DNA of 58,019 nt, counting the filler, from Sluysia triapertura (lineage: Eukaryota): the NCBI GenBank assembly GCA_046118255.1. It is 4 parts of 4 records of this genome, joined end to end, with 100 filler letters (N's around TTAATTAATTAA, not from the genome) between each part and the next. Parts side by side here need not be neighbours in the genome. Positions count along the whole stretch, not along the records: positions 1 to 16,948 come from JBJNIA010194933.1; 3 more parts are not named here. One strand, written 5' to 3'. Position numbers and translations under genes: made by a program. Below the pieces are notes generated by a model. That model saw nothing but the letters and a program-made list of their open reading frames with translations. It was not told the DNA's origin and searched no databases. This document shows positions 2,610 through 49,639 of this stretch, one piece after another (position 1 is the first letter of the stretch; each line of letters opens with the position of its first letter).

Positions 2610-3827
2610 TGTTAATAATTTTAAATGACTTTCTAAATTATAATTTTACTTTGAAAATTTTATGTACCTACTTGATGTGATTACTCCTCCAATCAGAAAG
2701 CGTAAAAATCCATGAACAGTACAACACTGATTGGACGACTAATATTAAAAATTAAAATTAGAGTAATTGAGTGATGAGCCACCATCAGTGCTGACATGGA
2801 TTTATAAACAGTAATCAACAATGTCAGTAATGGTGATGGTAGATACTGATTTGGATATTATGTAAAATTAATAAAGTTTAATATTAATAATAACAGTGAT
2901 GTTATTATTATTAATATTAAGTAAATACAAGGTATTTAAAAATACATAAATTCTTTCTAAATTTTACACGATCTTTCTTCACTTTTCTTTATATTTCTTG
3001 ACAGATTTTGAATCTAAAATTAAAAATGATTGAATTGAGTCTAATAACAATAATAATAAGAGAAACGATGTTATAGTTACTATTGTTATTAAACTGCATG
3101 AAATCTTGAATTCTTTAAAAACTGTACATGATCTTACTTGAAATCCTTTTAGTTTTCTAAACATATTCCAAAACTAAACATGTATTTAAAACTAAAGATC
3201 TTTAAGTAAAGGTTGGTTTAAGTGATTTTACATATATAATTGTCGTTTCAAGATAGCAGTTCTTATGTTATTCAGTAAAATGTAGAACGTTAGAATGAAT
3301 TTTTAGATTGTGATTAATGTTTTTGACTGAAAGTAATATTTGAATATTGGAAGATTGTGACCAAAAGATACATTGAGAAGAGTGTGGTTTAGTGGATGTG
3401 AAAAAGATAAATTATAGTCCAACTCTTATTATGTTCGAAAGGTGATTGTACAATGTTGCTAATGTGATTTGTTCTCTTTCTATTTTTAAGTGGTATAGTC
3501 TTTTGTGCTTTCGGGGATTATATGATGACAAATATTGAATTTAAAATGTTGTAATTGATTCGAAGGTGTCGAGTGGATACTTTCGAATGTGGTTGTAGTT
3601 TGATGGTTATGAATGTCGAGTAAAATTTTTTGATGAATCTATTGATGTAAATTGATGGTATTGGATGTAAATGTAGTTTGTATATTATGAGATTGTGGAT
3701 ATGAATTGACTTTGGCATGTAAACTGTTGTGGTGAGTGTAGAGAAGGTAAATATGTGAATGTTAAAATGTTAAAGGATTTTTATAAAATTTAATAATAGT
3801 GAAGGTTGACCACCACAGACTCCATAC
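1232..3827 (-). mobile_element. Double-hairpin cargo cassette, copy 1 (complete module plus decayed cargo ORF)
   Basis: Terminal motif GTGAAGGTTGACCACCACAGACTCCATAC 3799-3827; G/T-rich (+) body about 2980-3790, homologous to 52950-53610 and (reverse) 32300-32840; motif B 2941-2980; hairpin 1 2779-2797/2821-2840; hairpin 2 TCCAATCAG 2688-2696 / CTGATTGGA 2727-2735; cargo ATG at 2609. Confidence 0.7.
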
Positions 3828-4379
3828 TCGAATTAGAGTTAACTATATTTAAAATTTTATAATTCACCGTAAATTATCATTACATATTTATTATCTTGGC
3901 CTGGTTACACGACTAAATAGTAGATTGATTGTCGTACAATTTGAAGAGATATACGTTTCACTGTTTACCTAAATAATTTTAAATTTCATACATATTATAT
4001 AATGTTTATTTATCATTTTCTTTAAAATAAATAAATAATAAATGATAAACATCTCTTTTAATAATTGTCTTAGACAACCAAAAATAAAAAGTGTCTTCGT
4101 ATTTTTTACAAATTGTTTTACTTATCGAAATAAATATTGATAAATTTAATTGATTTAGACAATTCATTGTGAATCTACAAAGTTTATAAAATTGAATTTC
4201 GAATCGAATTACTTACACTGTTATTGGAATTATACTTCTGTATATCTCCAAATATCTGTATTAACAACAGACGGAGTTCAGCATAAATCCAATTTTCAAA
4301 ATGCACAAATAAATAAATTAAATAATTTAAGTAAGACATATTTATTTAATTTTTATATAATTATTGAAAGGAATGATCA

Positions 4380-4380: not shown

Positions 4381-4435
<55 letters not shown>

Positions 4436-4470
4436 GATTATTATTATTATTGTTGTTATTGTTGTTGTTA
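4381..4470. repeat. (TTA)n/(TTG)n microsatellite
   Basis: Direct reading. Similar tracts at about 5380-5420, 10600-10645, 13795-13865, 16882-16948, 18343-18400, 29772-29815, 38565-38612. Confidence 0.95.
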
Positions 4471-5373
4471 GACTTCATAAAATGGAAATCAAAATGGGCA
4501 CCTCTCGCTTCACAGTGGTGTAGTTCGATATTTATGCTAGATATTATGCTAGAATAATATGTATGCTAGATATTATTCACATACTGTTTAATAATTTTAT
4601 TCATCATATTTAAATAACCTTTAAGTCTTAAAATCAGATTATTACTAATATAAATCATGTTTTGAAAATTGAACTTATACTTGTCAACAAGCATCTAAAG
4701 TATACGTTAAAATGATCATTACTTACTTTGTGATGAAGATTCTCAACTGCACGAGCATTTACTTTGATAAATTTCTTTATAATAGAATCTTAACTGAATT
4801 TTTATTAAATGAGCAATATCGAATTTCTAAGTGATACCTGTTAGTGTTTATTCTATCGTTATCTCATTCAAAATATTCTTAACTTACAATTTCACAATAT
4901 TAGAATCACAAATTACACATTAAATTATCACAGAAAACTTCAAAATTAATCCAAAACATTCAATTTCACAATCCTTTAACATTCAATCAGTAACGCCAAC
5001 GAAAGATATTAAATTCATTTGTCAAAACCATTTTTTAACATTCCTATCTCAAAAAAGAAATTCAAAAACTAATTTTTTTAAAGAACTTTAACAGAATTGT
5101 ATTAAGAAAATTTCATTGTTAAAAGAACAAAATTAGGTAAAGAAAGAAAGATTTAAATTGCAAGAAACAGAATAAAGTTTATGTGAAATTTTCAGTTTTA
5201 TTATTGTAATTATTATTTGATTTCGTTTATTTATATGTTGAGAAACGAAAGAACTAAATAAAAGAAAAGATCGTGTTATGAAGCATTAAAGTTTATGCAT
5301 TTAATTTTAATACAGTATATTTTATATAATTTCATTATTATTATCATTTATTAATATTTTATCACTTATTTTC

Positions 5374-5422
<49 letters not shown>

Positions 5423-5908
5423 TTATTTAACATTCAATTAAGACCAGCGTTATAAACTACAATATAATTATTACATTCTGTTACCAATCGACAGTAATCC
5501 AATTAAATTAATTGAGTATTTCGTATGAACTGTCGATTGATGACAGCTTTCAGGCGTGTGGTGTCATTTTGGCTTGTCACTATTCTCTAAATCAATTCTT
5601 TTTATCAGCATGGTAACACGCATACATGCTTACAACCTTATCTACGTTAATTGATTTGGCGTCCAATCAAGTCTATCTCTACATTGTAATTTTACTTATT
5701 GGGATTGGACGTCCAATCAACAATGATATCATAATATGGTTAATTAAAAATTAACAGATTTTAATGAAATTCTATTGGTTATTCTATTTATAACATTTTG
5801 TTAAATAAAGTGAAAAGCAACTGTCTTTATTATTAGTTTTAAAAATAACTTCTTTATATAAAAATTATAAAACCTTAATTTTAGTGTTTTGGCAATGATT
5901 TTTCGAAT

Positions 5909-6599
5909 ATGGCATTAATATTTCATTTGTTGAGTGTTGAAAACTTAAAAGGAAGATGTGACAAATTCATGAAAATTAATTTCAGTGACTTTGAAAATGC
6001 GAGATCATAATAGAATTGAATTTAATGAACAAATTGAATGGTCTATTGAACGAAAATTAGATGAATTTGATATTATAGAAATGAGGTTATATCAATATTG
6101 TAAATATATAAATAATAAAATGATTGGAAGTATTACTATTAGTTTACCAAAGCTAATAGTAGAACGCACAATTGTCTGTCACGAAAATCTCGCTGATTCA
6201 AATCATTCGGTCATTAAGATAACAACATCATTTGAAATTAAATATTATTCTCCATATAGTCAGGTTGGATACTTACTTACACAAGATTTTGATCAACCAA
6301 TAATAGATAATGATGATAATTGTATTTTAATTAGAGGTAAAGATGAAGTAGCACTAGCTGTTAATTACGCAGAGGAAGAAGATAATGGATCCATGTTATC
6401 AGCTGATAATCAAGACAAGTCTATTTTAATTGTAAATTTAAATTCGACAAGAAAAATGCTAAAATTATTAGTGATGGAACAACTGAGTATGTGGAGTGTT
6501 GGTAATAAATTTATTTTGACAAATAATTCGAGAACCGTTGGCAATGTGCCGAAAATAAAATTATGTTTGAAAGGATTGCCGTTTCATTTTACCGACTAA
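5909..6599 (+). pseudogene. OTOF: Intronless, frameshifted otoferlin/ferlin C2A-domain fragment fused to unrelated sequence
   Basis: ATG 5909 gives MALIFHLLSVENLKGRCDKFMKINFS; after a frameshift near 5990 it continues EFNEQIEWSIERKLDEFDIIEMRLYQYCKYINNKMIGSITISLPKLIVE...ENLADSNHSVIKITTSFEIKYYSPYSQVGY. This follows the otoferlin N-terminus ([26 protein letters not shown]...FDETFRW...LEIQVFNYSKVFSNKLIG...). The rest of ferlin is absent. Confidence 0.8.
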
Positions 6600-6768
6600 A
6601 ATTAGTATCATATATTTTTCAACAAGTATTTCCCGCCACATTGAGAAAACTTACATGAATATGATTAGTAATACAGGACAAAGATTTAGTTCGATTTTTT
6701 AAAAATATTTTAGGAATTCGTTAAAAACTATATCAATAAACAAATTCATCTCAAATCAAGAAAATTTT

Positions 6769-7164
6769 ATGCAATCAGATCATTACTATGCCCATTCCAG
6801 TCCAACGAGTCGGGGCGATGCGTCAAATCTGGATTCTCATGCAAGTACTACCACACTGTTGATCAAATTAATTATATTGGCACCAACATATTTGCAACGT
6901 ATACAAAATATTATAAAAACTATCCTTGATGTCGCCAAAATAAACAATCCAATATATAAGGAGAATCACAATGAAGTTGGCAATAAGACTCGATTCATTA
7001 AATGCTTGAATGGCATCAATTCTAAACTAATCATAATTTTTAATATTCAACTATTACTAAAATTTTATTTTTTTATTCGAGGAAGCAACGACGTGTTAGC
7101 ATTTCGCCCAATATTTCTAACTTTAGTACAATTTTTAGTTTTGATAAAAATAAATACATTTTAA
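6769..7164 (+). CDS. Hypothetical ORF, probable 3' part of the cassette 2 cargo
   Basis: 131-aa ATG ORF on the same strand downstream of the ferlin fragment; no recognised domain. Confidence 0.3.
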   Translation: MQSDHYYAHSSPTSRGDASNLDSHASTTTLLIKLIILAPTYLQRIQNIIKTILDVAKINNPIYKENHNEVGNKTRFIKCLNGINSKLIIIFNIQLLLKFYFFIRGSNDVLAFRPIFLTLVQFLVLIKINTF

Positions 7165-7399
7165 CATTTGTATCTTTTAATGTTGTAATTTTAAAGTTAT
7201 ATAATGAAATTGAATTTAAATTATTTATTTTTACAAGAAAGTTTACAAATTCAATATAAACAAATCAACTAAACCTTACACAACTCAAATTGACAATAAG
7301 AATACATAAGTTTTCACTACATAATTTCATTGAGCAGAATTATTAAAACCTATTCAAGTTTTGTCCTGCTTCTATATCCAACAGCTATCCCTAACTAGT

Positions 7400-9208
7400 A
7401 ACAGTAGATACGTTGGTGAACTCACATTTAATTTAAATTTATTCTGCCCAAAATCTCTAAACTTTTCTCACGATAATATTAAAAAGATAAAATGAAACCA
7501 AAATATCTTAGTAATTTGATAAAATTACTCAAAGTATTACAATGATTTATGATAGATTTAAGATAAAAACAGAGTTCTTTTTAGCTGAAGAGTATTAAGA
7601 CATTAGATTTTCTTTGGATCTTAGAAATATTACATTATTTTAAATCTTGCTCATTTTGTAATAAAATGTTTAAAATATTACATTCAAATGGTTGTGTAAA
7701 AGTCGTAGATCTAGTTGAAATAGGATTCAATAGAAATTTTAGCAAATGGTCACTAGTGAAATATGAATATAGCAAAACATTACAGACGTTTTGTGAAAAT
7801 TGGTGAAATAGGCTATAAAATGTTTTACTTAACACTAAAATTTCATAAGTTAACATACGAAATTGGCAGACATAAATTTCAAATTTAGGTTTAAAGAAAT
7901 GGATTAAAGATTGGTCTAAAATTATTACGTCATTATTATAAAAGTTGTGGTTTAAAAACTCTAAAATGGTGACCATTAATGCAAATTTTTTACAAGTTTG
8001 CAAAATATTATTTTTTTTAATAATTTAAATACGAAATTACGCATTTCTTTAACATAAACATGGATCTTAAGGACCTTTACTTTATTAAAAATAAACTCAT
8101 AAACAAAACGATGAATTTCAACTGATTTATTACATGGCACAATAAATTTGATTATAAAAATTTTAGAATAAAAATCACAAATATAAACATATAAAATTTT
8201 ACGTATAATAAATGAAAAACTTACAGTTAAGATTGCTCCAACATCATAGATTTATTTGAGATTACACCAACGAGTAAAAATTTCAAGTTGGTATCATGCA
8301 TGACTTGATATTCCATATTTATGAATTTTTGATCATATTCTGTGAATAGGTCGAATAAACTATGAAAAATGATCTTTGCATATATTGTGTTATAGAAAAA
8401 ATTTCAGCAAAATCCAAACTAATTTTATGAAAGTTATATTCTGTGCGAATTTTAACATGGTTAAAATTAAATTCGATTCTGATTAATTTAGTTTTAATTT
8501 GAGGCAATAAATTAGGTTCAGTACAACTATTAATAGCTTTGAAATTAACATTAGCTTGTCGGTTCAAATTGTCATCAGAGTCTTTACACACATGTTGGTA
8601 TATGAACTTATTAAACGAATTTTGAGCGTAATATGAATCCGCGGGCATATTGTCAAAATGATTAATTAATGATCTATTACAATCTTGTTCCATATTTGAA
8701 GTAGTTTTAGAATTGTACTTCGAAAAAATTAGGCAGCCATTATCACCATTTTCAGAATCTATTTTTACTTATTGATTAAAAATTTTTCTTAAATAATATT
8801 AAAACATTAAATTTTTATTAAAATTATTATTTTAAATATTATCTTTTTGATTGGTATCAATGACAAATAATTTGATTGTTTTACTCTGAGTAGATGGCAA
8901 AAATTGCGATTTTTATCAATATGCATATCCAGAAAGTAATTACGGAAATTAATACAAAATGTGTTATGATTTTGATACGACATAGTTTCTGGTTGAATTA
9001 TGGACTTATAACTCATTGGATTATCTTCTAGTTGTATGTAAACTGATTTTTGACTGTCATTTTCGTTTCGAAAAGACTGATTATTTTTATTCCAATATTT
9101 TATTCTTGATTCTAGTGAAGGACACACCTTAACTGGCAAATGAACTCGAATTTTGTGATCCCTTAAATAATCGAATATACTTTGATTTTCCTTTCTCGAA
9201 GTCATCAT
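7400..9208 (-). pseudogene. Decayed multi-exon gene, weak SAC3/GANP-domain resemblance
   Basis: Minus-strand ORF pieces 8807-9208, 8319-8693 and 7635-8003 separated by short AT-rich intron-like gaps (GTAAG at about 8225, GTAAT at about 8040) and in-frame stops. The peptide HRFVYEFIFNKVKVLK near 8060-8115 recalls the SAC3 'YxFIxDRxRAI' helix. Family call is tentative. Confidence 0.3.
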
Positions 9209-10689
9209 ACGATCGATTTTCTTTTTGTCACAGATAAAATATTTTGAAAAAAACTAAGTGCTGAATTTGGTGCAGTTCCTGAGATAGTTATTACAATTAA
9301 TCAACAATTACTATATTCAAATGTTTTGAGAAAAAGTGAAAAAGTAAGGATAAGAGGTATTTCAGTGTTTTTAAAAGAAGTGTGCTATTTAAGAATTTAT
9401 GTTATGATATAGAACTTTATGTATTGTGCTGATTGCATTTAATGTATTTGATTGATTATTTACTTAATGTTTAACAATTGTTTAAGTGATTAATTTCTGA
9501 TTTAACTTTGAATTATTAGGTGAACCATCATAATTAAATTATTCCAAGTGCCTTTGAGTGCTTATTTTATATTACAACCATTATTATTCTCATTTTTATA
9601 TTTTTCATTATCATTATTATATTAAAACAATATTTTCTTCTATTTTATTCAGGTATTACAGAATGGATCTATAAAATATTAATAATTCTAATAATAATTA
9701 TGATTTTCTTATTTGGTGCTGCTAAATGTATTATCATAATAGTGAAACGGTTTGTTTAATGATAATAAATAAACATTATTAATAATCAGAGAAACAATAA
9801 AATGAAAAACATTAAAAAATTGATTTTCTTACACTTAATTAAAATTGTTTAAATTGTTTGTTTTTTAAACATTCTACACTTGATATAATAGATGCGCAAT
9901 AACTGCAGAAAATGAAAAACATTTCTTCAAGATCGAATATTTATCATCAAATGAAAGTACAACTAGTGTGATAAGGAAATTATTAATTAATTTTAATTTA
10001 ATTTTTATTAGTATGGCAATAATGCAAATGGTTTGTTAATTTTGAAATGATAAATTAATAATAATTTGTTTATTAATGTATTAAATGTTATTTTACATTA
10101 TGATTATTATTATTATTTTACTTTTATTTTAGCTTTATTATCATTATAAATTGAATAATATATAAAAATAATAATAATTGTACTAATTTGTACGAGCTGT
10201 TACTGTGTTTTCTAAGTTTGGTGACGCTAAAATTTAAAATAATTAGAGAAAACTTTTATTATGGAAAATGTTTGAAGAATTATAATAAAATTAATCATTC
10301 AGCACCTCCAAAGAATTCCAGTACGAGCACAGTTATTTTATTTTTAATACTCGTGGTCATAATTTGTGTAGTATTTAGCATTATTAAAAATAAGAGTAAA
10401 ATTAGAGAGATTTGGAACAAGTCCAAATTGATAAATTTCTTAATTATAAAATAATATATTTTTTCAATATTAAATTTCACATTAAAATAATTTTTTATTA
10501 ATTATAGTTATAGAACACGAAATTCTGAATGCAGAACAAATCGTAAACACAAAATTCACAAGTTATTATTTTGATTTTATGATGATTATGATGACGATAT
10601 TAATAATAATAATAATAACAATAATAATAATAATAATAATAATTATCATTATTATCATTATTTTAATTGCATTATCACATTTATTACCA

Positions 10690-11415
10690 TTTAACATTTT
10701 ACTTTTTCAGAATATATCAAAACCTTTTTTATATTTCAAAATATTTTAAATTCATAACTTTATAACATCCAAATCATATTTACATTCAAAATATTAAAGT
10801 CCATTTCAAATCTCATTTAAAACATTCTTATCTCACAATTCTACAACATTTGTGCCACAGTTTACATCTTAAATTATCATAGAAAACTTCAAAATTAATC
10901 CAAAACATTCAATTTCACAATCATTTAACATTTAATCAGTAACTCCGACGAAAAACATTAAATTTACAGCTCAAACCTTTTTTTAACATTATTATCACAA
11001 AAAGAACTTCTTAAATTAATTTTTTCCAAAGAACTTCAAAGAATTTTATTTACATATTAAGAAAATTTTAATTTTTAAAAGAATCAAGGTCATGTGAATA
11101 AAGCAAGGAATTCATGAATTTTAATTATATCTATTTTATTTTATTATAATTATTATTCTTGTTTATTTATTATCATTTTTATTATAATTATCATCAATAA
11201 TTATTTGCACTATATATTTTATTCACAATACAAATCACATTTCTGGTTACTACCGCTGCTTGCACTGTCAGTAATGACAGTTTTTCAGTTGATTCATATC
11301 ACCTACTGATATTAACAACAGTTGCTTTATATGTTGTCCTACTTCTCGTTATATCTGTTGTCAGTGTTCAATAATTAATACAACTAACTTCAATCAATAA
11401 GCTACTGCTGTTAAT
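10690..11415 (+). mobile_element. Cassette copy 3: body plus degenerate hairpins, no cargo of its own
   Basis: 10820-11080 aligns with 4870-5130 (e.g. AAATTATCA.AGAAAACTTCAAAATTAATCCAAAACATTCAATTTCACAATC); motif B variant 11081-11125; ATT-rich tract; CTGTCA-GTAA-TGACAG palindrome 11265-11280; no CCAAT hairpin. Confidence 0.6.
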
Positions 11416-11449
11416 ATTTTATTATAAAAGTGACTTTGTACAATGTTGT

Positions 11450-13342
11450 TTAGTCATCTTCATTCTGCTTTATTATTATTATTATTATTATTATTGTGGG
11501 GGGTTGTGATGTTATTTGAATTTGTTGGCTATTATGTTTTAGAATTATAAAAGATTTTAAGGGCGTTAATTTATCCATAAAATAAAATTGCTGAAAAAGT
11601 TTGAATTTAAGAACATAGTATTCATCTATAAAGTAAATAGAATGCGGTAAATTAAACGTTGTAGTATTGCGTCGGTAAGGTTTTATGGACTTCAAAACAG
11701 CGTAAAATTCAACTTTAACTGACTCTGGTGTTGTATGGCAGACTATTTCATTGTCTGAGAGTTCAGTTCGAATTTTATAATTGTGATGTTCAGGTTTTCG
11801 TATTTTGTTATGATTAATTTCTTGAGCAGTCGCATTGGACTTTCGATTATAATATAACTTAGTATCTTTGTCCGTTTTACCGATGTTTAATTTATAGTCT
11901 AGAAGTATTTTTTTATTATTCGGTTTTATCTTAACGTAAATAACAACTAAATAAGAAGGTTGAAAATATTTAAGAACATAATTTATTAAAAATTTTAATT
12001 TATTTATATTGATCAAAGCGATGAACATTTTTGGTGGTAAACGCCGCTCTCGTCCGTGCCGGGATCCATCTTCGTTACAGCATGATAGAATAATCCTGTA
12101 ATAAATTATACAAGTATAATAATTATAAGGAGAATAGCAAATAAAATTTAATGTTAGATATTTACCTAGGCCATCTGCAAATTGATTTGAAACAAACATA
12201 TTTCCTCCGTCCAAGTTACCGTTGTTGAATTGGCTTCGTAGTAATTTCTTGGGAAAATTAGATTTATTTGTATAGGATTTATTTATCGATGTAAATTTCG
12301 AAATTATATTTTTACCACTACGGGAATCCCAATTTTCGTCATAGCTTTTAACAGCTTCGGAGATGAGCAATTGATCTAAGTAGAATTCAACTTCTGAATC
12401 CTTCAACCTTTCTAACTTAACAATCTTTCTTCTTACTTTTGTACTGAATAACGGTAATAACGTATTGGTAATAGCTTTCAGTAAATTTGTTGAATGAACA
12501 TTAAATACACTTTTCAAATTTTGCTTGATATCTCTATCAATTTCTCTATAGGAAACTTTAATTCTTATAACTTGGGAAGAATTGGCATAGACGTCTATAT
12601 TGTTGTTTTGACTCTCATGGTTAAATGCTAGCACATTTTGAATGCTTAATGTATTGAGATTTGCTATATTTCTACATGTTAAACGATCTTTGAGCACAAA
12701 TTCAATAATTGAATAATTATATATGTTATCGATTAATCTATCGAGTATACATGGCGTACTAATTAGAAAATTGAGCATCTTTTCACCACACTGAAGAGAG
12801 GGCATTTTGGTTACTTTTGGCACAAGGCTGCGTGTTACTGAATTTATGACATCATTGTTTGGGCAACGCATAGATTTGGTCTGATCAGAACCATCAAAGT
12901 TGTCATTACTATTTACAAGCGAAGTAGGTGACCTGAGAAAAGGATTAAACAATATTTTCAAATATTTATAATCTTCAGCTTGACAAAATGCTTCATAAAC
13001 ATTACTGACAATTGAGGAAAGAATTACTGATATAATATGTTGAAACCCAAAGTATGTTACTCCGTTAACTTGTGGTTTGGGTGTTTCAGCTAAAATTTAA
13101 AGTGTTGCTGTCAAGTTTTCATCATTGAGCAAAATTTCTAATAACGATTCATTAGATGTATGGACTTTCAGGATTTGATGGAAGCCATAAATGCTTGTTG
13201 TTAACTCACGTATTATTTGATAAACTTGGCGATAATCTAAAATCATTGAAAAACTTTCATCATTTGTACATGGAAAAAATGTTATTAAAATCTTCGATTC
13301 TGTTGATAAAACTGGCATTGATTTATAAATCCCATCAGACAT
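11450..13342 (-). CDS. About 630-codon intronless cargo ORF of cassette 4 with one in-frame TAA
   Basis: ORFs 13097-13342 and 11450-12961 are in the same frame; the intervening codons (ILAETPKPQVNGVTYFGFQHIISVILSSIVSNVYEAFCQAEDYKY) are open, so TAA 13097-13099 is the only lesion. No recognised domain. Confidence 0.6.
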
Positions 13343-13556: not shown

Positions 13557-13799
13557 TCACCCAATCAGAGTGCTGATGTTTTTCTTTTCTGATCTTTGTT
13601 GTTTAATCTCTGATTGGGTGACATTTGATATCAATGTGATGCAAAATGTGTGAATTGTTAAGACCCTGATTGTACACCATCATCATCAATGAGTTTTGGT
13701 TAAAAATAATTAAATGAAATGTCACAAGTGATGATGGTGACAACAAAATTTATTTACTAAAAATTTTGATAAAGATAGTTAAAATAATTAGCAATAATA

Positions 13800-13865: not shown

Positions 13866-14776
13866 GTAATGACATATTGTCGTTTACGGATGATTTGTTT
13901 AGACAGTCTATTAAAAAGCTATGAAAACTTAAAATGTTTTAAGGTATGAAATTGACAAAATATATAAAGTCATTCCATAAAAAAATAAAAATATTAATAG
14001 TAGTAATATTAAGAAAAAAATAATTATAAATCAACATGAAAATCTAAAAATAAAAATAAGAAAAATAATTTTCAGTCACTGAAATTCTGAAAAATAAAAT
14101 AAAATATAAGAAAAATTATTTTTACTTGTGAATTTGGTAGATATATCAAAAAATAAATTATTATAAATATCTAGTAAGCAAGTAAAATTCGGTAAGAAAA
14201 AGATATAATAATAATATACGATTAGTACACATTCCTTACAAGTTGCTACCAAGGTGGATGCAGACCTACTTTTTTGCTTTTGATTGAATTTATAATAATA
14301 GACAATTAGAACGAGTTCCCACCAAATCAATTTCTTTAAAATTATTGTCTAGGTTTGTATGTTTATTTTTTATAATAATTTTGTCTTATTATTATTATTA
14401 TTCTGTCGCTATCCTAATAAGATACCTATAAAATTACTTTTAAAATCTCAATCTAAAATGAACAAATTTATTATTCTTAATCATTATATAAAATCTTAAT
14501 TAAACTTATTTAAGTTTGAGCTATTTTAATATAATAGTTATAAAATCCTAATTCATTAATATTAACATTAATATTAGTGGTTTACACAATTATTTTGTAT
14601 CTATTAGTAATATTATTGATAGTTTAGTTATTTTACTAACTTTTTAATCGAATTTTTGATCGTAAATATTTGTTATTTGTGTTACCTAATAGATATTGTA
14701 GATATTATTGTGTTAGGATACACGCCTAAAGTGCCTTTTAGTATAATTGACTGTAATAATCCAAAATTGTTAGACT

Positions 14777-15010
14777 GGGCTGATAGTTCAGTGAGAGGGC
14801 ACGATGTCGATTCCCGGTCAATCCATTTTTTGAGCCCACATATCGAATACCCTTCCGATGTTGAATTAAATGATTTACAAGATGTTTGAGGCCTTGTAAG
14901 TGCCATTTAGTACAATTCACTAATAATCTAAAGTTGCTAGACAGGGCTGTTATCTCAGTGGGTAGGTCATCGAACTGTGTAGCGAGAAGCCCGGGTTCGA
15001 TTCCTTTCGT
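14777..15010 (+). pseudogene. Two degenerate tRNA-like heads (tRNA pseudogene or SINE-like)
   Basis: GGGCTGATAGTTCAGTG...GTCGATTCCC (14777-14820, internally deleted) and GGGCTGTTATCTCAGTGGGTAG...GGTTCGATTCC (14944-15004) carry Pol III A- and B-box-like motifs; acceptor stems do not close. Confidence 0.55.
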
Positions 15011-16948: not shown

Positions 16949-17048
16949 NNNNNNNNNNNNNNNNNNNNNNNNNNNNNNNNNNNNNNNNNNNNTTAATTAA
17001 TTAANNNNNNNNNNNNNNNNNNNNNNNNNNNNNNNNNNNNNNNNNNNN
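16949..17048. other. Assembly gap with artificial TTAATTAATTAA linker
   Basis: 100-nt block of Ns with a central six-frame-stop linker; identical blocks at 29816-29915 and 41999-42098. Confidence 0.97.
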
Positions 17049-18399: not shown

Positions 18400-21300
18400 T
18401 ATCAATTTATATTTCGCTCATATCTACTGCAAAATAAATCATTCATTATAATATTTCTGAAACAGAAAGAACTTCGCCTTTCTTAAATATTTCATGATCT
18501 TCCAGTGATTTGACATTCACTGGTTGTATTCTTTGGAAACATAAACGGTGTACAACCTATCATCTAGCTTATTATCACTGCGGATTCTGTATAGATTATT
18601 AATTCTCAATTAAGTATTCATCTCGGTTTCCAAATTTTTTATTATGCGTAAGAAATATTCAGGACTTCCGTAATGTAAGCATTTGTAAATTATTGTCATG
18701 ATTTTGAATTGGCGCCCAATACAATTCCTTAAGATAAGGTCTTACATGAGATCTTCCAACTTGGAAAATTAGTCTTGTTGCTTGATTCATTATTAACTTT
18801 TCACTTTATTATATGAAATTGAGTGCAATATACCATTGTTAAAATCTCTGTTATTAGTTATGAATGAATGAACAATTAGTTTAGATGTTTCTTTATTAAT
18901 TAATTTCCGAATATTTGATATTTTATTTAATTGATATTTACACATTTTAACAATACAATTAATATTTTCTTCCATGTTCATTTTTGAATCTATATAACAT
19001 CCGTAGCGTATCACCTACAATTAACTTTGATTCATTTATTTTGGTATCGTGGTTATTTTTATTACTGAAGATGATAAATTCTGACGTTTCTTCATTGATT
19101 TTCCAGTATTTATTTCCAAACCATTTTATCAATTTAGATACTAGTTCTTCTGTTCTTTGAATAATATTTTTTATGTTATTCACTTCAAATTCAGTATATA
19201 TTTGCACATCATCAGCATATGTATGGTATTAAAACCATATGTCGCGATTACACTTGAAACATCATTGATATATATTATAAAAAATAATGGATAATGCTTT
19301 ACACAGACCTCATTGGACTTCACATTCAAAAAGACGTACTGATTCAAACCATTTTATTGCACATTCTTTGGAGATCACAAAGTAACTGTATCAAAAACAG
19401 TGCACATATCTAACAAAACCATCAAAACACATTTATTGTGATTAAAACAATTTAAAAATATCATAATGCATTCTTAAAATTGCTGTTTCTATTGAGTGAT
19501 AGGCTCTGTAGGTTGATTGATACATTGTAAGAAGTTGATTTTCATCTAATAACTTTGACAATTGCTTTTTCAATTAATTTTGTTAAGAGTGTTATATTTG
19601 ATACGGGTCTGTAATTATTTAAATGTAACGGATCACCAAATTTTAGTTGAGGTAATTATGACGGATACTTAAAGGGACTTTTAGACTATATAATGAATTA
19701 TTTTAATATATTTCAATAATAACCTGAACAATTTTAGTCAAAATTGAATTATTTTTGATAAGTTTGGTTGATATTAGGTCAATAGAACTTGTTTTGACAT
19801 TTCCGACATAATGTGCATTAACTTATCCTCATTAATTTTCTTTAATTCAAATTCGTTTATGTTCTTTTGCATCTCTAATTTAATATTTGATCAATTACTT
19901 CTATTTCGTATATTTTCCACTTTCGATACAAAAAATTTTATAGTCATTTGACGTGATTTTATCATTTTCATTTTGTTTACCAAATAATCTATTAAATAAT
20001 TTATAAACACATATGATATTTGATATATTGACTTATTATATTGACTTTTTCTTTTTAAAAGCTTCAAATAGTATATTAGGAGATTATATGTATTCTTTCT
20101 TTGTTTCACCAGTTTTTTTATTTCTCCATTTCCTCACTTTGCAGTGCTTATATCTTCGCAACTCAATAATCTCAGAATCAAACCAAAATTTCTCATTGGC
20201 ACCACATCTTATAAAACATGTTTGCATTTTAGAAGTACATGCTTGTTTAAATAAAAGGATAATGTTCTGTTGTATAAATTGCTTACTGTATCTCTATCGT
20301 CTGTAAAATTTATCATTTTTCAAATTTGCTCGATACGTCTGTTCTCAACTCTTAAATATCCATTTTTAATAAGTTTCTATATTCAATCTTTTTATACCAA
20401 ACAGAATTTGTAATCTTAAATTCTACTTTAAAAGTAAATAAATAATGATTAGATATATCTAATAGTTCATTCACATTTATAACAGTAACGGTAATCACTA
20501 TCAATATTGGTTATTTGATCTATTACTTCTATTTCGTATATTTTCCACTTTCGATACAAAATATATTTCCACATTTCATATAATTTCATGCGGTTCGTTA
20601 AATTAAATATATTTAATAAATATATGAATGTTTTATTTGTTTTACATTCTTCATTCATTTTTATATTAAAATCCCAAGTTATTAAAACGTCTTTGGCATT
20701 TTCCAAAACAATATCCAAATAATCATAGAATTCATCTAAAAGTTCTTTAATTGAATTATTGGGTGGTCTATATATAGCAATTAATAATATCGTTTTATTT
20801 GTCTCAGTAATATTTAATTCTATATGTTCAACTGATTTATATTTAAGTGAAACAATGTCAATAAATTTGTCACTTATTTATTATGACACCAATACCACCA
20901 CCATGTGATCTTTCTCTCTACATTTATGAAAAAATTAATATCCATTAGAGGAAATAATGAATTAAATATTTTATCATTTTTTATTTTAGTTTCTATTAAA
21001 CAAAATATATCAATGTAATTTCCATAGTTTTATTTTGAAGAAACCTAACATTTTGAATACCAAATTTAATATAATCATTTTTTGTACTTTTTGCAGTTTT
21101 TTGATTTATATTCATAATTTTTCTTATCTTTTAAAATTTCAATATATTTTGGACATTTATGTGAATTAGCTGGATGATTAAAGTCATTATGACATTTTAC
21201 ACAATTTATGCACTTGTAGAACTGTTCGTTTTCTTTATTCGGACTTTTTCCTCTATGGTTTTAGAACAGTATAAACACGTTGGATCATTTAATTTATATC

Positions 21301-23194: not shown

Positions 23195-23595
23195 TAAGGT
23201 GACCATATTTTTAGATGGGCAAAGCGGGACAACTCTGAAAGAGGGGGAAGTATCAACAAAAATTTTCATACAGAATAAAAATAATATCGTAATATTTTTT
23301 TATTTTTTAACAATAGACTTACCTTAATTTTCTATGGTAAGTGGCAGATTTGTAATATTTATTTGTTTAATTAGCTTGCTAGCACGTAGTACGAACACGA
23401 ATTGTATCATCTGAGAGACAAATACAATGTAACTGGGTAGCAAAAGCAATATGTAAGTCGTAGTAGGATTCTTAGAACGCAAAACAATGATTTTCATAAA
23501 TATAAATTTTAACTTAATTCTAAAAGTCGGGATTTTTGAAAAACGTCGCGGGACGCTGGACAAATTGTAAAAAATCGGGACGTCTGGTCACCTTA
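23195..23595. mobile_element. hAT Blackjack-type MITE, copy A
   Basis: TIRs TAAGGTGACCA 23195 / TGGTCACCTTA 23585-23595, with CGGGAC subterminal motifs. Confidence 0.85.
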
Positions 23596-24293
23596 TGTAT
23601 ATTTATTTGTATACCGTATTTAGATCTAGGATGAGCTGAAAGAAAGTGATACAGCTAAATAAATTTAACAATTTTACGAAAATTTAAAACATGAATTGAG
23701 TAAATATGGTTAAACGTAGAAAATAATTTCAAAGTAAAATGTTAAAAGCTGTATTTTGGCATCTTTGATAGAAATATTGTTACTTTAGGGCAGTATTACT
23801 GTTAAGAGTTGTAATACATCCATCTTCTACACGTCAAGAACTTTATTGCTGACAAAAATATAAGTATCACACATTATATGAAAAGAATTAATTACTCAGA
23901 TATTAAAAGATGAAGAAATAAGCCCAATCCTTTTTAAGTATGAAGTTATTCGTTACTGCATATTCGTCGCAAATACTTAAGAATTTATTTATATTCATAC
24001 AAATTATATAAATATTTATTTCAATAAGAAATTAATTTAAACCAAATAATACTTAAATTAGGAAATTAGAGCTTGTTGAGGAATGTGTATAAGTAAAACA
24101 TGAAAGTATTTTTTCAACAAGATTTTCATGGTCATTGACAACCTTAAACTATATATATATTTGTGTGTGTGTGTGTGTGTGCGTTTCTATTAATTTTTAT
24201 ATTAACACATTTAAGCGTAACATAGTTAAGTGAGTAAATGTAAATTTCAAATTTCAATGAAAAATTTTGCAAGCTCTAATTTGCTAATTAACA

Positions 24294-24680
24294 TAAGGTG
24301 GCGGGACAGTCCCGATTTTTCACAATTTGTCACGCGACGTTTTTCAAAAGTCCCGACTTTTAGAATTAAGTTAAAATTTATATTTATGAAAATCATTGTT
24401 TTGTGTTCTAAGAATCCTACGTGCTACGACGACGAACATATTGCTTTTGCTATCCACTTACATTGTACTTGTCTCTCAGATGATACACTTCGTGTTCCTA
24501 CTGCGTGCTAGCAAGCTAATTAAACGAATAAATATTACAAATGTGCTACTTACCATGGAAAATTAAGGTAAATCTTATGTTAAAAATAAAAAAATATTAC
24601 GATATTATTTTTATTCTGTATGAAAATTTTTGTTGATACTTTGCTTCCCGCTTTGCCCATCTAAAAATCTGGTCACCTTA
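24294..24680. mobile_element. hAT Blackjack-type MITE, copy B (inverted relative to A)
   Basis: Highly similar reverse complement of 23195-23595; left TIR partly deleted (TAAGGTG), right TIR 24670-24680. Confidence 0.85.
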
Positions 24681-24993: not shown

Positions 24994-26210
24994 ATGGGGG
25001 CTTTTCTAGATAAACCAAAAACAGAAAAATCAAGTTTTTTTGAAAATAGTGACGGATTAAGTTATGGCGTTTCTGCAATGCAAGGATGGCGCATTGATAT
25101 GGAAGATGCTCACACTGCAAGATTATCATTAATTGAACCATTCTCAAAATGGAGTTTTTTTGGTGTTTATGATGGACACGCAGGAAGTATTGTCAGTGAT
25201 GTGTGTTCTAAGCGTTTGCTTCCAGTTGGGATTATTTTTACTCATTATAATTTTTTATAGACAATATTGGAAACACGAGAATTTAAAACGTTAGAATTAA
25301 ATTCGGACAAAGATCCTATCAATTTAGAACAAGTTAAATTAGGAATACAAAAAGGGTTTTTAGAATTAGATCATTCAATTGGTACTAGTACTGATGTTGA
25401 AAATGGTGAAGATAAATCAGGATCAACAGTTTGTTCAGTATTTGTCACTCCAAAATATATCATATTTGCAAATTGTGGTAATATTTGAATATTATAATTT
25501 TATGTTTTGTAGGAGATTCACGTGGAATACTTGTTAGAGAAACTATTGTTCACTTCAGTACATTTGATCACAAACCAATGAATCCTACTGAACGTGATAG
25601 AATTCAAAAAGCAGGTGGTACAGTAATGATACAAAGAATAAATGGATCTTTGGCTGTATCGAGGTTAGAAAATAGTGCAAACAGTTTTCATATACTGATA
25701 CAAAAGTAAAAATGAAATATAAGGCAAATGATCGTGTTGATAAGATTTAATTGCTATATTAAATAAAATTCAAGTTAAAATGTTATGAATACTTAATATT
25801 TTAAGCATAAGAATAATTTTTTAATATTATACAGGTCCTTAGGAGATTTCGATTATAAAAAAGTGGAAACAAAGGGTCCAACTGAACAATTAGTGTCGCC
25901 AGAACCAGAAATAACAATTATTGAACGCGATATATTGAAAGACGAGTTGCTTGTTTTGGCCTGTGATGGAATCTGGGATGTAATGACAAATGAAGAAGTT
26001 GCTGAATTTGTTAATCACCGGTTACAACGGAATTCTGATATTAGTAAAGTTTGTGAAGAAGTTATTGATGCGTGTTTGTATAAAGGTAGTCGGGATAATA
26101 TGAGCATTATTATTGTGACAATGCAAAATGCACCAAAATACGATGAAACACTTGCTGAAAAAGATAAGGTGCTAAATGAAAATATTATTAGAAAGACGCA
26201 TGGTTTGTAA
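24994..26210 (+). CDS. PPM1B: Protein phosphatase 2C, PPM1A/PPM1B type
   Basis: [78 protein letters not shown]. Exons 24994-25224, 25261-25477, 25513-25663, 25835-26202; introns of 36, 35 and 171 nt. Exons for the C-terminal domain were not located. A versus B paralogue cannot be resolved. Confidence 0.95.
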
Positions 26211-29815: not shown

Positions 29816-30361
29816 NNNNNNNNNNNNNNNNNNNNNNNNNNNNNNNNNNNNNNNNNNNNTTAATTAATTAANNNNNNNNNNNNNNNNNNNNNNNNNNNNN
29901 NNNNNNNNNNNNNNNCAGGCATACAAATTAGAAGCAAAATATACATACTAAATCTTAAAATTAATAAAGTAATAATAGAATGCATCAAGCTGGTTAATGC
30001 AATTTTCAGATTTAAAAATGGGGCACTTCCTGTAACACAAAAGCAATTTAAAATTTTTATTTCAGAGGTCATTTGTCAAATAAATACGAAGTTCCGTAAT
30101 CATTGTCATTATCTTTAGTTATTCATATCGAAACATAAACTCCAATCATTTCCAAATTTTTTAAATACCAAATGTACAAAATTTTAAGCAAAATTTTATT
30201 TTCATCACATATATTTGTTACTATAAATAATATTGTTTCATTAAATTAAAATTTTACTGATTAATAACAAATAATAAATAAAAGATTGTGATTTAATATA
30301 ATATTTAAATAAATTTTGAAAAATAAAATACATAAATATAAAATAAGTGATGTCAACTAAC

Positions 30362-31072: not shown

Positions 31073-34000
31073 GGTCTAGTAAATATGGACAACCGTTAAA
31101 TCTTCTATTATCACGTACAAAAAATAAGTGAACGTCAACACCTGGTAATTTGTATTAAATATCAAAATGCACTATTAATAATTTTTAAAATGCAATATCA
31201 ACAATAGTTAATTGGCAGAATTTAGCAACAAAAATATAATATAATATAATCATAAAATATAATCATATAATTAACAAAATTATATAACATAATCCTTAAC
31301 AATTCCACAACCCTCACCACACTTTATACTTTACAACTTTCATAATCAGGCAATACACAACGTCATCCAATCAAACATTCTAATTGTAAACCATTTAACA
31401 ATAATAATAATAATAATAACTGCACAAATTCATCACACAAATTATCTACAAACTTAAACAATTTATATTCGTATAACATTAAAGCAAGAGGTCAACATAA
31501 TCCAGGAATTCATCTCAGATCCATGTCATTAGAATACTGAATAACAATATTTCAATATTACAATAGCTATTCTATAACTCAAACAATTCATATGCCATCA
31601 GCAAAAAACCAAATAATATGTTAATATATGCATAAGATCATGTTGTAAGTTAAAGAGAAATAAAAGATTTATGAATAAAAGACACAAAATAGAGTAAACA
31701 AAAACTCAAACAACTTTTAACTCGTAAAACACTTAGCAAAATTCTCAATCACCGAACAATTTTCTAAACACCTTGCAGTTAAAAACTTAACCTTTATAAT
31801 TTCATAACTCAAGTCATCATTTCTTCTGAATATTGAAATATATTATATTTATGCAAAAACATGTTTTAAATAAGCAGAAATGTAAAAAAACAAATAATTA
31901 ATAAAAGATTTTATAATATAATAATAATATTGTTAAGACTTTTTAAACAAAGTTAATAAATTGATGTAATAGTTGATGTATTATGTACATCAAACATTAA
32001 ACATTATACATTAAAGATGATGCATTTAGATGTTGCAAAATTATTGTTTGCGTGTAGTTAAGTTAAGAGTAAGAGTTACAGTGACAGTATGTAATCATGT
32101 TTTAAAAGAGTGTAGCAAAACGAAATGTGTGTATTCATAAAAGCAATCGTTTTTTTAAAGAAAAAGATTTGCTCAAAACAGAAAGTTAATTCTTTAATGT
32201 CATTTGTTGAATTTGTCATTAGTCACGTAGCCAACCTATTTCCCTAATAATCATTCTCTACAAATCACATTCAAAAAATCAACACATTATACATAAAACA
32301 TTAAACATTTTGATACTCCCATATTTTTCTCTTTTACAGCCACTAAAACATCATCCGTCAAAATCAATTAAACCCGCAATCTCATAACATTCAAAACCAT
32401 TAAACCACATTAAAAATTCATCTAAAATATTTTATTCTACATTTCTTAACAGGTCAATCACAATCAAATTCGAAATTAATCAACAAACATCTCCAAAGCA
32501 ATTCAAACATTATAATCCACGATCTTGTACTATTAAATCCTAACAACCAAACACGACTTTCTTTCAAAACACCAAGCATACATTTAAAAACTAATTTAAA
32601 ACAGCTCAAATCGTAAATCTCTAGAATCACAAGATAATAACAGCGTTATAAAATTTTAAAGAATCTAATACTTTCTGCATTTTTATAACTATAATAACAA
32701 TAGCATTGTCGCTCTTATTATTGTTATTATCCTTAATTCCATCATTTTTAACTCTAACTTTAATATGTTCAGAAATATAAAAGAAATAAAAGAAACACCT
32801 TGTATAAAATTCTAAAACAAAGAATTTATGTGTTTTTCGGTTAATAATAATAATAACATTTTGTTATTATTATTATTATTGTTATTGTTATTATTGTTAT
32901 TATTATTATTATCATCGTTTTAATTTTTATTATTTTTAATTTTTATCAAACTACAAAAATAATTCAGTAACTACCACTATTAGTGGCTAATTCATTAAAA
33001 TACACTTGTAATCAATAATGGTTCACTCATCAATTGTTCAATTGTATTCATTTATTGGTCACCCAACCACAATAAATCTTTACATTGCTTATTTTTGTTT
33101 CTGGTTGGATGGCAAATCAGTAGTATAATAACAAAAATTTTTCTCTATTCAGCATTGTTAAAAATTAAAAATAGAAATCTGAAAAACAATTGGCAGCGAT
33201 TAAAAAATTTTATACATTATTATAAAACTAATCAAAAATTTTACAGATAACTGATGACTACTAAAAACTATTGTTAACGAAACCGACTATGAATGATAAG
33301 TATAAATTATTATGCAATGATCTTAAGAAATATTTTTCTATTCTGGAACCTGATGTAAATAATCGATCTGACTTAAGACAGTGATATAATAGAAATATGT
33401 TTTAATTTCAAATATGTTTTAATTTTCCCGAGGTAAGACAGAAAAGATTATACTCCAACAATTCAAAAACAACTGATCAAATACTTATTCGTTGTATTTA
33501 TTCATACGTATTCCAACTTAGGGTTGATCTTAGAGTTTTAAAGGAATTTACTAACCAATATCAAGAACAAATCAATGCCTCTACATTTTGCCACAAAAAT
33601 ATAATTGATGTAATTCAACGCGAGATCTGTAATTTAAGAACTGTCATCATCATTGTCAACTTCAAAACTAGATTAAATATCCACAACTTCCCCAGTATAT
33701 TTCCTTTACGTTATTTGTCTTTAAATATGAAAACGTCAAATAAAAATTTGAAAGAGAATGCCTTTTATAAAGTTATGATACCAATATGTACAGAACCAGT
33801 TAAAAATGATAAAGTTAAATTTCTGATGATGCAAGGAAGGAAGAATTTTCGAATAAGTGTATCTGTAATTAGTTATGCTAAGGTAATTTATTTGAATCAA
33901 GGTGTAGAACCCACACCAATAATTACAAGAGATAACGTATGGAATACAAAAAATGATTAAAATTTTCAAGATTCTAGGAATAAACACAAACTCAAAGTTA

Positions 34001-34511
34001 TTTATAAATAAAGTTAAATCAATTGCTTCGTGTTGTTTAAACAAAGACGATATAACTGAATATAAAAACAGCTACCCAACACAGTAACGATGTATCCAAA
34101 AATCAAGTTTTTCTCCGATCTTCCACTATAAACTCGATTGTTCACAACTTTTTGAAAAGCTTTTTTGATGAAGATGAAGTATTTATTTCTTTTTATGATA
34201 TTAACAATAATTTTATTTTTGATTACTTTTTAGATAGTGAAACATGGACTCAAGTAGACTGTATATGTGGAATAAAATTCTCAAATATTAAATTTTTAAT
34301 TGTAGATATATTAAATAAAATTTTGTACGAGTATAGTTATTCATTTGTCATTAATAAATCAAAATTTTTATATAATTTATTAAATTTAATAAAAGATAAG
34401 GTAGAATTTAAAATTTTCAAATATCTAACAAAATCTTTTGAAAGAATTCGATTAATTCAAATGCTAAAGTTAATTTTATTAACAAAACTAAACAACTTAT
34501 TACACCAATAA
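31073..34511 (+). mobile_element. Double-hairpin cargo cassette, copy 5 (long, possibly duplicated body; decayed cargo 33289-34511)
   Basis: Degenerate terminal motif 31073-31097; CCTCACCAC and AGGTCAAC blocks homologous to the reverse of 50900-51130; 32300-32840 homologous to the reverse of 2940-3420; (ATT)n 32860-32915; hairpin 2 variant GTCACCCAACCA 33058-33069 / TGGTTGGATGGC 33102-33113; then broken + ORFs (33289-, 33715-33960, 34152-34511). Confidence 0.65.
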
Positions 34512-39815: not shown

Positions 39816-41117
39816 TTAAGAGAAATTGAACTTATGGTTGTATAGTCTATGTTCTAATGCCTTAACATTTGACATATTATAGTTGTTATTAATTTTATTC
39901 GTTGAAATTATCATAACATTCTCTTCTGATTCATATTGACTTACATAATATTTAAAATAGTAGTTCGTGTTAGTTTGAAGTTTTAATTTAATCGTTATAA
40001 AATATTCTGTACTAAATTTCGACACCTTAGCATTTAATGTAGTGTTTTTCTTACCCAATATACTCATTGGGATTATTTCTAACTTTCTATTAATATAATC
40101 GTAACTAGCATAATGATTAACACGATGGTTCATGATTTTTAAATGCTTTAACTTATTGACTATAACACGTTTAATCATCATTATTTGATCTCTAGTTTTA
40201 ATATAAAATTTATTAATTAATATTAAAGTATTTGTATAAAAATTAGTCAAATAAAAATTGTGGTTATATATTTGAATTACGATTAATAAAATTCTTTTTA
40301 CATTGACAAAGTTATCTAGGTTTTCGGATGTAATTCTCGAACATTTCTTTTCCCAGGTGATGATCAGTTTCACTAAACTATAATTATAATAAATAATAAA
40401 TTTACAACTAACAAAAAATGAAGTACCATAGTCACTTAATCTTAGTTCAATTATGTCATCATCAGAATAACCATGAAAATTTACGTTAAATGAAATAATG
40501 TTGTTAGTGAGTAAGTCGCCAGATGAACCGATTCTTTTATCATTTAATTTCTTAATATCGATTCTTGTTTCTGCTGGATCTTTGCTCTTAGATACAATCA
40601 CTTTATGTACGTCATTGGAATTGGTTTTTGAATCATCAGAATTACATTTAGATTCATCTAATATTTTAGATAATACCTCTTCCTTTGAGGCTTCGCCTAA
40701 TCTATTGAACTTTACACCAAATACATCTAATATCTTGAATATCTTTTTATCGATATTTTTTGATTCAACAACTTTATCTGAAATTATTAAATTCAATTCT
40801 TTAACATCATCTGTACATAGATCGTTAGTGTTAACATCTTCGAAGCTTCGAACTGGGTTTTCTACATTATTACCTGACAAAATGTGATCGTCTAAATTGC
40901 GTACGATGAAATACTTTTTATTGTCTTTGTTATCCTTTAAATAGTCATTACTAAAAGCTAATAAACCAAATTTATCAAATACATTCTCTGAATATTTACT
41001 AATATGATAACTTGATTGATGATGAATTTTACTGAATGAGAATATAAATTGGAGCATACTAAATTTATTTGTTGGAAATGGATATACGGTTATAATATTG
41101 TTTGAATTATCATCCAT
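39816..41117 (-). CDS. 433-aa intronless cargo ORF of cassette 6 (probably extended to about 39416 before frameshifts)
   Basis: Long ATG ORF in very AT-rich DNA, starting 165 nt from hairpin 2; no recognised domain. Confidence 0.65.
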   Translation of the reverse strand: MDDNSNNIITVYPFPTNKFSMLQFIFSFSKIHHQSSYHISKYSENVFDKFGLLAFSNDYLKDNKDNKKYFIVRNLDDHILSGNNVENPVRSFEDVNTNDLCTDDVKELNLIISDKVVESKNIDKKIFKILDVFGVKFNRLGEASKEEVLSKILDESKCNSDDSKTNSNDVHKVIVSKSKDPAETRIDIKKLNDKRIGSSGDLLTNNIISFNVNFHGYSDDDIIELRLSDYGTSFFVSCKFIIYYNYSLVKLIITWEKKCSRITSENLDNFVNVKRILLIVIQIYNHNFYLTNFYTNTLILINKFYIKTRDQIMMIKRVIVNKLKHLKIMNHRVNHYASYDYINRKLEIIPMSILGKKNTTLNAKVSKFSTEYFITIKLKLQTNTNYYFKYYVSQYESEENVMIISTNKINNNYNMSNVKALEHRLYNHKFNFS

Positions 41118-41281
41118 GCCTTTTATTTCATTAGAAATTCTTAAAATTAAATTTCCTAAAATATGAATTAATAAAATGTCTAGAATGAAGCCACACAGGA
41201 ATGATTTAATTCGTTTGAATACTTTGGAAAAAAAATTTTATGAGTCTAATATTTAATTGTGTATTTTCCACTTTTATTTAG

Positions 41282-49626: not shown

Positions 49627-49639
<13 letters not shown>
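48704..49639 (-). CDS. 311-aa intronless ORF, 3' part of the cassette 7 cargo
   Basis: Long open frame abutting and overlapping the end of the REEP fragment; ends NLTPST...YYPLNM. Confidence 0.55.

What the first reader, a model, noticed from the sequence alone, without database searches (positions are those of the whole stretch)
5909..6599. Otoferlin C2A domain captured without introns behind the cassette module
Seen: the ferlin match starts at its own initiator Met, covers only C2A, has no introns (host genes here have introns every ~150-370 nt), lacks a short stretch after KINFS and then runs into unrelated sequence. Inference: a 5' mRNA fragment was captured through an RNA intermediate. 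LINE retrocopies are usually 3'-anchored with a tail, so a 5'-only capture suggests template switching or another mechanism.
Basis: partly seen in the sequence, partly recalled or inferred. Interest (0 to 1): 0.72.

Follow-up and report, generated by a model that had tools for sequence, protein, structure and literature searches.

The report
Intron-stripped otoferlin piece in amplified repeat
The front end of an otoferlin gene sits here without its introns, behind a repeated promoter-like stretch and in many decaying copies, so it was likely copied from spliced RNA into a mobile element and then spread with it.

Summary
Bases 5909-6308 encode the N-terminal C2A domain of a type-2 ferlin (otoferlin) from its own start codon. 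They read straight through four sites where homologues, flatworm ones included, show exon breaks. No later ferlin domain lies in the 10.6 kb to the next assembly gap or elsewhere in the window, so this is not the real gene.

The gap after KINFS is a 14-nt frameshifting deletion that other copies lack: later decay, not a mark of capture. In run X1 the piece lies on many divergent contigs, joined to the same upstream module; its changes look neutral. A CCCH finger follows.

An RNA step is well supported (about 0.9). The enzyme is not identified. Template switching in a non-autonomous retroelement is my best reading (0.5). LINE internal priming, which is known to give 3'-truncated, tailless copies, is a close rival, so 5'-only capture does not exclude LINEs. 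The parent gene was not seen, and junction microhomology could not be tested.

This scan has noted the same module-cargo-finger layout on other pieces of this genome, with other cargoes. It had no look-alike of this otoferlin stretch.

The parts
4861..5150 (+). G-poor leader segment of the repeated module (copy D)
   Evidence: 79.7% over 301 columns to 10810-11107, E 2e-66
5197..5420 (+). Conserved motif block followed by a (TAT)n run
   Evidence: 70% to 53020-52848; local score above all 200 shuffles against modules B, C and E, not against A or G
5485..5540 (+). First inverted repeat (hairpin 1)
   Evidence: DNA fold z -3.4, 0 of 200 shuffles as good
5651..5720 (+). Second inverted repeat, holding two CCAAT boxes (5663, 5713); promoter role inferred
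   Evidence: z -4.3, 0 of 200 shuffles; boxes
5889..5897 (+). 9-nt word repeated exactly at 6538-6546 (8 nt again at 6977); possible target-site duplication, unresolved
   Evidence: other copies differ at 5897
5909..5995 (+). Otoferlin codons 1 to about 29 from the native start Met; spans intron site 1 (after 5987)
5995..5996 (+). 14-nt deletion shifting the frame (stop at 6008-6010); absent from other copies
   Evidence: tables 4 and 7
5997..6308 (+). Rest of C2A and start of the linker; spans intron sites 2-4 (6029, 6119, 6218); in-frame ATG at 5997
6309..6599 (+). Open tail of 96 codons: diverged ferlin linker or foreign sequence; no C2B
6789..6854 (+). CCCH zinc finger (C-x9-C-x6-C-x3-H), probably in its own exon from about 6779
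   Evidence: Pfam zf-CCCH_UNK E 0.0011, below cut-off; only such motif on this pattern besides a doubtful one at 36299; contigs rejoin at 6773-6779

Best explanation
This is an intron-free, 3'-truncated piece of an otoferlin gene inside a multi-copy unit (promoter-like module, captured piece, CCCH finger), likely copied from spliced mRNA when the reverse transcriptase copying a non-autonomous retroelement switched onto the host mRNA and back. Shown: identity, reading through four exon-break sites, absence of later ferlin domains, many divergent copies joined to the same module, a later 14-nt deletion, and a neutral mix of changes. Inferred: the parent had these introns; capture happened once, before amplification; the module is a promoter. 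Least certain: template switching in an LTR-type element as the enzyme step.
For: Exon breaks in homologues cluster at profile positions 26-28, 45-47, 75-76 and 108-112 (sequences). The closest homologue P0024 (unnamed genomic ORF, 14/26 and 21/41 identical) has a 21-residue in-frame insert at site 1 and stops at site 3. A Schistocephalus gene model (P0033) departs from P0010 at sites 1 and 3. A Paragonimus model (P0027) breaks at site 4. Five single-exon ORFs (P0054-P0058) run from site 3 to site 4. laid 121 contigs on 5880-6370 (6, 19, 49 and 47 at 99+, 95-99, 90-95 and under 90% alike). Listed pieces span the sites without an intron-like joint. One contig bridges module and cargo (5651-5929) and others join tail and finger. 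At 7 of 10 tested residues the other copies carry the P0024 residue; none of the 10 sides with the window. For switching: no A-run of 8 or more in 5801-10800. 3 of 3 identified cargoes in the window are sense to their module and lie just behind it or in the ORF behind it. One of them is an internal RhoGAP piece, cut at both ends. LTR-mediated retrocopies are partial, more 3'- than 5'-truncated, and re-amplify with a shared junction (PMC5131818, passages).
Against: No second LTR was found: the downstream module E matches D over only about 290 nt and lacks its hairpin-CCAAT end. No gag or pol, polypurine tract or proven primer-binding site was found. No tRNA or Rfam match was found. A 9-nt direct repeat brackets 5898-6537 like a LINE target-site duplication. 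LINE relics lie in the window. Introns of homologues are inferred from protein records; no DNA was seen. The parent locus was not seen, so microhomology is untested. 3 of 3 sense cargoes has a chance of 1 in 8.
Confidence: 0.5

Rival explanations
1. A LINE enzyme primed internally on otoferlin mRNA and inserted a tailless 5' copy behind the promoter of a CCCH-finger unit; the unit was then multiplied as DNA (Helitron-like or by duplication).
For: Exact 9-nt direct repeat at 5889 and 6538. Its 8-nt core occurs only 3 times in the window, all in this unit; 4 of 2000 shuffles give two repeats, a post hoc test. LINE endonuclease and RT relics at about 18660-21260. Tailless copies by internal priming (PMC5322556, passages). 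Retrogenes inserted into promoter-carrying Helitrons and then amplified (PMC4224331, passages). The module upstream of the likely transcription start is copied along.
Against: All 9 contigs covering 5897 have another letter there. Units C, F and G have a similar word before their cargo but no exact second copy within 4 kb. One exact repeat arises in 241 of 2000 shuffles. Random insertion does not predict the same position and orientation in several units. No Helitron ends were identified.
Confidence: 0.3
2. The otoferlin 5' exons were joined to the unit's finger exon at the RNA level (trans-splicing or ligation) and then reverse transcribed.
For: The piece is sense, starts at the 5' end, and donor-like GT sites (6487, 6502) and an acceptor at 6778 lie between it and the finger. 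First exons are trans-spliced onto LINE-1 RNA in mammals (bioRxiv 10.1101/2025.02.02.635956, abstract and section 32).
Against: It does not explain how the upstream module is kept. The 3' joint is not located at a ferlin exon end. No RNA data.
Confidence: 0.08
3. DNA-level capture (Pack-TIR or Helitron type) from a parent, or an earlier retrogene, that already lacked these introns.
For: The parent was not seen. P0024 itself reads through site 2, so introns are lost in this lineage. The 400-nt match is only slightly longer than the longest host exon measured (about 369 nt). DNA transposons capture host DNA in animals (PMC8277862, passages).
Against: It needs loss at sites 1, 3 and 4, which are seen in tapeworm, fluke and P0024 records. 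No terminal inverted repeat pairs with D.
Confidence: 0.1
4. This is the 5' end of the real otoferlin gene.
For: Native start Met with promoter-like sequence upstream.
Against: C2B starts 56-166 residues after this point in 9 of 9 homologues in which it was located, yet no later domain is found in 10.6 kb. Frameshift, many copies, and 10 synonymous to 30 non-synonymous changes.
Confidence: 0.02

Closest known systems
LTR-mediated retrocopies (Tan et al. 2016, PMC5131818; maize Bs1 as cited there; passages read)
   Same: Partial, intron-free, tailless mRNA piece inside a repeat; 3' truncation; further amplification with one shared junction; chimeric frame.
   Different: No flanking LTR pair, retroelement ORF remnant or junction microsimilarity shown here. 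The piece starts at its own Met about 190 nt behind a CCAAT hairpin and precedes a CCCH finger.
Tailless retropseudogenes (PMC5322556, passages read)
   Same: 5'-complete, 3'-truncated, no A tail; candidate target-site duplication.
   Different: Described for therian LINE-1, mostly from small RNAs and as single insertions; here an invertebrate, amplified with its flanks.
Helitron-amplified retrogenes of bats (PMC4224331, passages read)
   Same: Intronless gene piece beside a carried promoter, multiplied to tens of copies.
   Different: Those were 5'-truncated with A tails and target-site duplications; no Helitron ends were identified here.
Pack-TIR / Pack-MULE (PMC8277862, passages read)
   Same: Host fragments inside multi-copy units.
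   Different: DNA-level capture; that study excluded intronless copies of multi-exon parents; no terminal inverted repeats found here.
Type-2 ferlins (otoferlin, Fer1L4; PMC2923515, passages read)
   Same: N-terminal C2A sequence.
   Different: All other domains and the transmembrane tail are absent; the copy is decaying.

Membership tests
Type-2 ferlin gene (intact) | N-terminal C2A closest to otoferlin | tested here: met
   the longest top hit P0008 has C2, FerI, FerB and Ferlin_C and no DysF
Type-2 ferlin gene (intact) | C2B-FerI-C2C and C-terminal C2 domains with transmembrane tail | tested here: not met
Retrocopy (RNA-derived) | Several exons joined without introns | tested here: met
   four sites read through; introns inferred from homologue protein records, not from the parent's DNA
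Retrocopy (RNA-derived) | Intron-containing parent elsewhere in the same genome | not testable with these tools
   no genome held; no parent-like contig among the rows shown, 38 of 44 loose ends not shown
Classical LINE retrocopy | 3' end of the mRNA and A tail | tested here: not met
Tailless LINE retrocopy | Target-site duplication | tested here: inconclusive
   9-nt repeat 5889/6538; other copies differ at 5897
LTR-mediated retrocopy | LTR on both sides | tested here: inconclusive
   E matches D over about 290 nt only; D itself appears cut at its outer end
LTR-mediated retrocopy | Microsimilarity at both joints | not testable with these tools
   needs the parent mRNA and a cargo-free element
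LTR-mediated retrocopy | Retroelement ORF remnant, primer-binding site, polypurine tract | tested here: inconclusive
   no Pfam retroelement domain in the unit; a TGGCA-type word precedes 4 cargoes, defined post hoc and not matched to a tRNA
LTR-mediated retrocopy | Secondary amplification with a shared junction | tested here: met
   one listed contig bridges the 5' junction
Pack-TIR / Pack-MULE | Terminal inverted repeats around the cargo | tested here: not met
   no inverted partner of D in the window
Helitron / Helentron | Defined 5' end and 3' hairpin end, no target-site duplication | tested here: inconclusive
   unit ends not located; the high-copy stretch at 7345-7460 does not fold better than shuffles (z 0.2)

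The most novel reading that the evidence does not exclude
This genome holds a family of non-autonomous elements with a dedicated slot: spliced host mRNA pieces, here a 5' end with its own start codon, are swapped in between a fixed twin-hairpin promoter and a fixed RNA-binding finger by a route that is neither LTR capture nor LINE insertion. Each successful swap founds an amplified subfamily of chimeric genes, a standing exon-shuffling machine in an animal.
Probability: 0.2. Interest if true: 0.8.

Novelty: new variant of a known kind. Interest (0 to 1): 0.47.

Why it matters
It is a clean test case for how this genome's gene-capturing units get their cargo. Otoferlin C2A has exon breaks shared from flatworms to vertebrates, and the captured piece lacks all four, so the cargo very likely passed through spliced RNA. 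That narrows the candidate elements and makes the family a place to map template-switch joints in an invertebrate. The C2A piece itself appears to be neutral debris, not a new functional protein.

Tried and rejected
Parent locus: no genome is held. Two word-index protein searches with the ORF gave nothing (0 of 708 and 0 of 56 candidates). A metagenome scan with P0024 confirmed 0 of 295 pattern matches.

Deletion as a mis-splicing product at intron 1: rejected; other copies keep the 14 nt and the gap lies 8 nt past the site.

VGNK-like stretch in the tail as decayed C2B: rejected (106-996 of 1000 shuffles score as well in 9 comparisons).

Second ferlin piece in ORF 39816-41237: rejected (tblastn E 0.03-0.17, profile E 4.6).

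Selection on C2A: not seen. The 40 best-supported of 171 variant sites give 10 synonymous, 30 non-synonymous and 0 stop; the expected synonymous share is 0.22-0.25. The lack of stops is not significant (P 0.11). The 131 unlisted sites were not examined.

D and E as an LTR pair: not supported.

P0007 (VCBS-repeat protein), 1 of the 28 hits, was dropped as chance.

Human OTOF exon limits (c.79, 138, 227, 327) are recalled; two paper searches and one paper did not confirm them, and the argument does not rest on them.

Expression: no RNA holder was listed, which is no evidence either way. The ESM Atlas did not complete.

Print search: none of the 10 listed of 470 papers holding 3 of 5 terms contained 'otoferlin'. 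Neither of the 2 papers holding 5 of 6 terms contained 'flatworm'. These are narrow searches. No supplements were opened.

Full report
Identity. ATG 5909 opens 33 codons, the first 26-29 of which match residue 1 onward of ferlins; C2A continues one frame over in ORF 5973-6599. The only solved-structure match at E<=1 is otoferlin C2A, 3L9B. A phmmer search of 1.84 billion representatives gave 28 hits. Of these, 27 match a ferlin N-terminal profile (the profile was built from 18 of them), and one VCBS protein was dropped. Named hits are otoferlin, otoferlin-like, Fer1L4 or C2-domain proteins. The longest has the type-2 layout without DysF (types as in PMC2923515, passages).

Not the real gene. 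Long ferlins match the window only with their first 139-165 residues. Profiles of C2B and of everything after residue 150 find nothing in 2466 ORFs or in three-frame tiles up to the assembly gap at 16949. C2B follows within 56-166 residues in the 9 homologues where it was located, and host introns here are 35-171 nt. The tail 6309-6599 is not significantly like any of 6 linkers, so the 3' joint lies somewhere after 6308 and is not placed.

Intron test. The parent could not be fetched, so I used the break points of homologue records. Their matches start, stop or are interrupted at profile positions 26-28, 45-47, 75-76 and 108-112. The closest, P0024, has a 21-residue pyrimidine-codon-rich insert at site 1 and a stop right after site 3, as a genomic read-through would. 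P0054-P0058 run from site 3 to site 4 between junk. A Schistocephalus gene model departs from its fuller record at sites 1 and 3, and a Paragonimus model at site 4. These introns are inferred from proteins. The window reads through all four, at 5987, 6029, 6119 and 6218. P0024 itself reads through site 2, so only three sites weigh for this lineage.

Many copies. One run (X1, possibly the source of the assembly) holds the stretch. At 80% likeness 121 contigs lie on 5880-6370, 96 of them under 95% alike, with up to 23 contigs per variant site. All 30 bins of 4400-11500 are covered. One listed contig bridges module and cargo, and several join tail and finger. Depth is no copy number, but the divergent contigs show a family. 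Three contigs carry 14 more letters behind 5995 and 11 more show them as a loose end. Fourteen is the offset between the two frames, so the gap is decay in this copy or its branch. At 7 of 10 residues tested the other copies have the P0024 residue and none sides with the window. The 40 listed of 171 variant sites are 10 synonymous, 30 non-synonymous and 0 stop, as expected without selection. No listed contig shows an intron-like joint, but most loose ends were not shown.

Context. Upstream lies a module with a G-poor leader, a conserved motif, a (TAT)n run and two inverted repeats, the second holding two CCAAT boxes. Related modules lie at about 2690-3830, 10700-11400, 32250-33150, 50140-51300 and 52700-53640, and a CCAAT end at 13560-13620. 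D scores above all shuffles against B, C and E but not against A or G. Behind two of them lie a REEP piece and an internal RhoGAP BCH piece, both sense; I did not test their introns. Downstream lies a C-x9-C-x6-C-x3-H finger, weak by itself. Earlier notes of this scan report the same finger as the fixed 3' part of such units on other pieces of this genome and call the host a flatworm (unchecked AI notes; I tested only this finger, not the taxon). Whether tail and finger are spliced in frame is not shown.

Mechanism. Spliced mRNA was very likely the template (about 0.9). Capture came once, before amplification (inferred from the shared joint). For the enzyme step I favour template switching in a non-autonomous retroelement: there is no tail, cargoes are sense and in a fixed slot, one is cut at both ends, and the product was re-amplified, as described in PMC5131818 (passages). 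Against it, no LTR pair or retroelement ORF was found. A LINE route stays close: tailless 5' copies arise by internal priming (PMC5322556), LINE relics are in the window, and a 9-nt repeat brackets 5898-6537, though other copies break it at 5897. Amplification of such a retrogene by a DNA element has a precedent in bat Helitrons (PMC4224331). DNA capture from an intronless parent (PMC8277862 type) and trans-splicing are less likely.

Verdict. The feature is real and the RNA step is well supported. It works like an LTR-mediated retrocopy, but membership is not shown. RNA capture into repeats is known. The fixed promoter-slot-finger layout may be a new variant, and this scan has noted it before with other cargoes (no look-alike of this stretch). 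The otoferlin case adds an intron-site test, not a new protein. Interest 0.47.

Noticed in passing
window 49627-50084 (-): REEP/TB2-DP1-HVA22 piece (E 5e-11) with stops and a frameshift, starting about 60 nt behind module C, no visible intron.
   Followed up: partly
window 11450-13096 (-): 548-codon ORF holding an internal piece of a RhoGAP1-type BCH domain (chain residues 139-217, E 1e-5) among unidentified sequence, behind a CCAAT pair at 13566-13617.
   Followed up: partly
window 39816-41237 (-), 48704-49705 (-), 51445-52590 (-), 33406-34511 (+), 7635-9253 (-): Further long ORFs in 25% GC DNA, most behind module copies, without a convincing Pfam match; the first two also had no convincing PDB match.
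   Followed up: partly
window 3813, 51282 and about 53625 (-): Modules A, B and C share an outer-end motif that begins with TGT, as LTR ends do (recalled); G and D do not show it clearly.
   Followed up: partly
window 5889, 33190 (+), 50126, 13502 (-): A TGGCA-type word sits just before the cargo in four modules (4 of 8 occurrences in the window, pattern defined post hoc): promoter word, primer-site relic or target site.
   Followed up: partly
window 7376-7445: About 70-nt stretch on over 100 contigs of run X1, with loose ends on both sides: a very high-copy short repeat or element end.
   Followed up: partly
window about 18660-21260 (-): Decayed LINE: endonuclease piece (Pfam E 9e-4) and an RT-like YADD motif.
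   Followed up: no
window 24994-26210 (+): Host PPM1A/B-type phosphatase gene with introns of 36, 35 and 171 nt; used as a control.
   Followed up: yes
window 23195-24680: Inverted repeat pair of about 400 nt, 86% alike, like a TIR element.
   Followed up: no
window about 14760-15010: Two tRNA-like stretches by eye; ARAGORN and Rfam found nothing; perhaps SINE heads.
   Followed up: partly
window 16949-17048, 29816-29915, 41999-42098: Three 100-nt assembly spacers (44 N, 12 bases, 44 N); adjacency across them is not real evidence.
   Followed up: yes
P0008, P0001, P0010: Annelid and flatworm ferlins of otoferlin type keep a C2A, whereas PMC2923515 (2010) found it only in human and sea anemone type-2 ferlins.
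   Followed up: no
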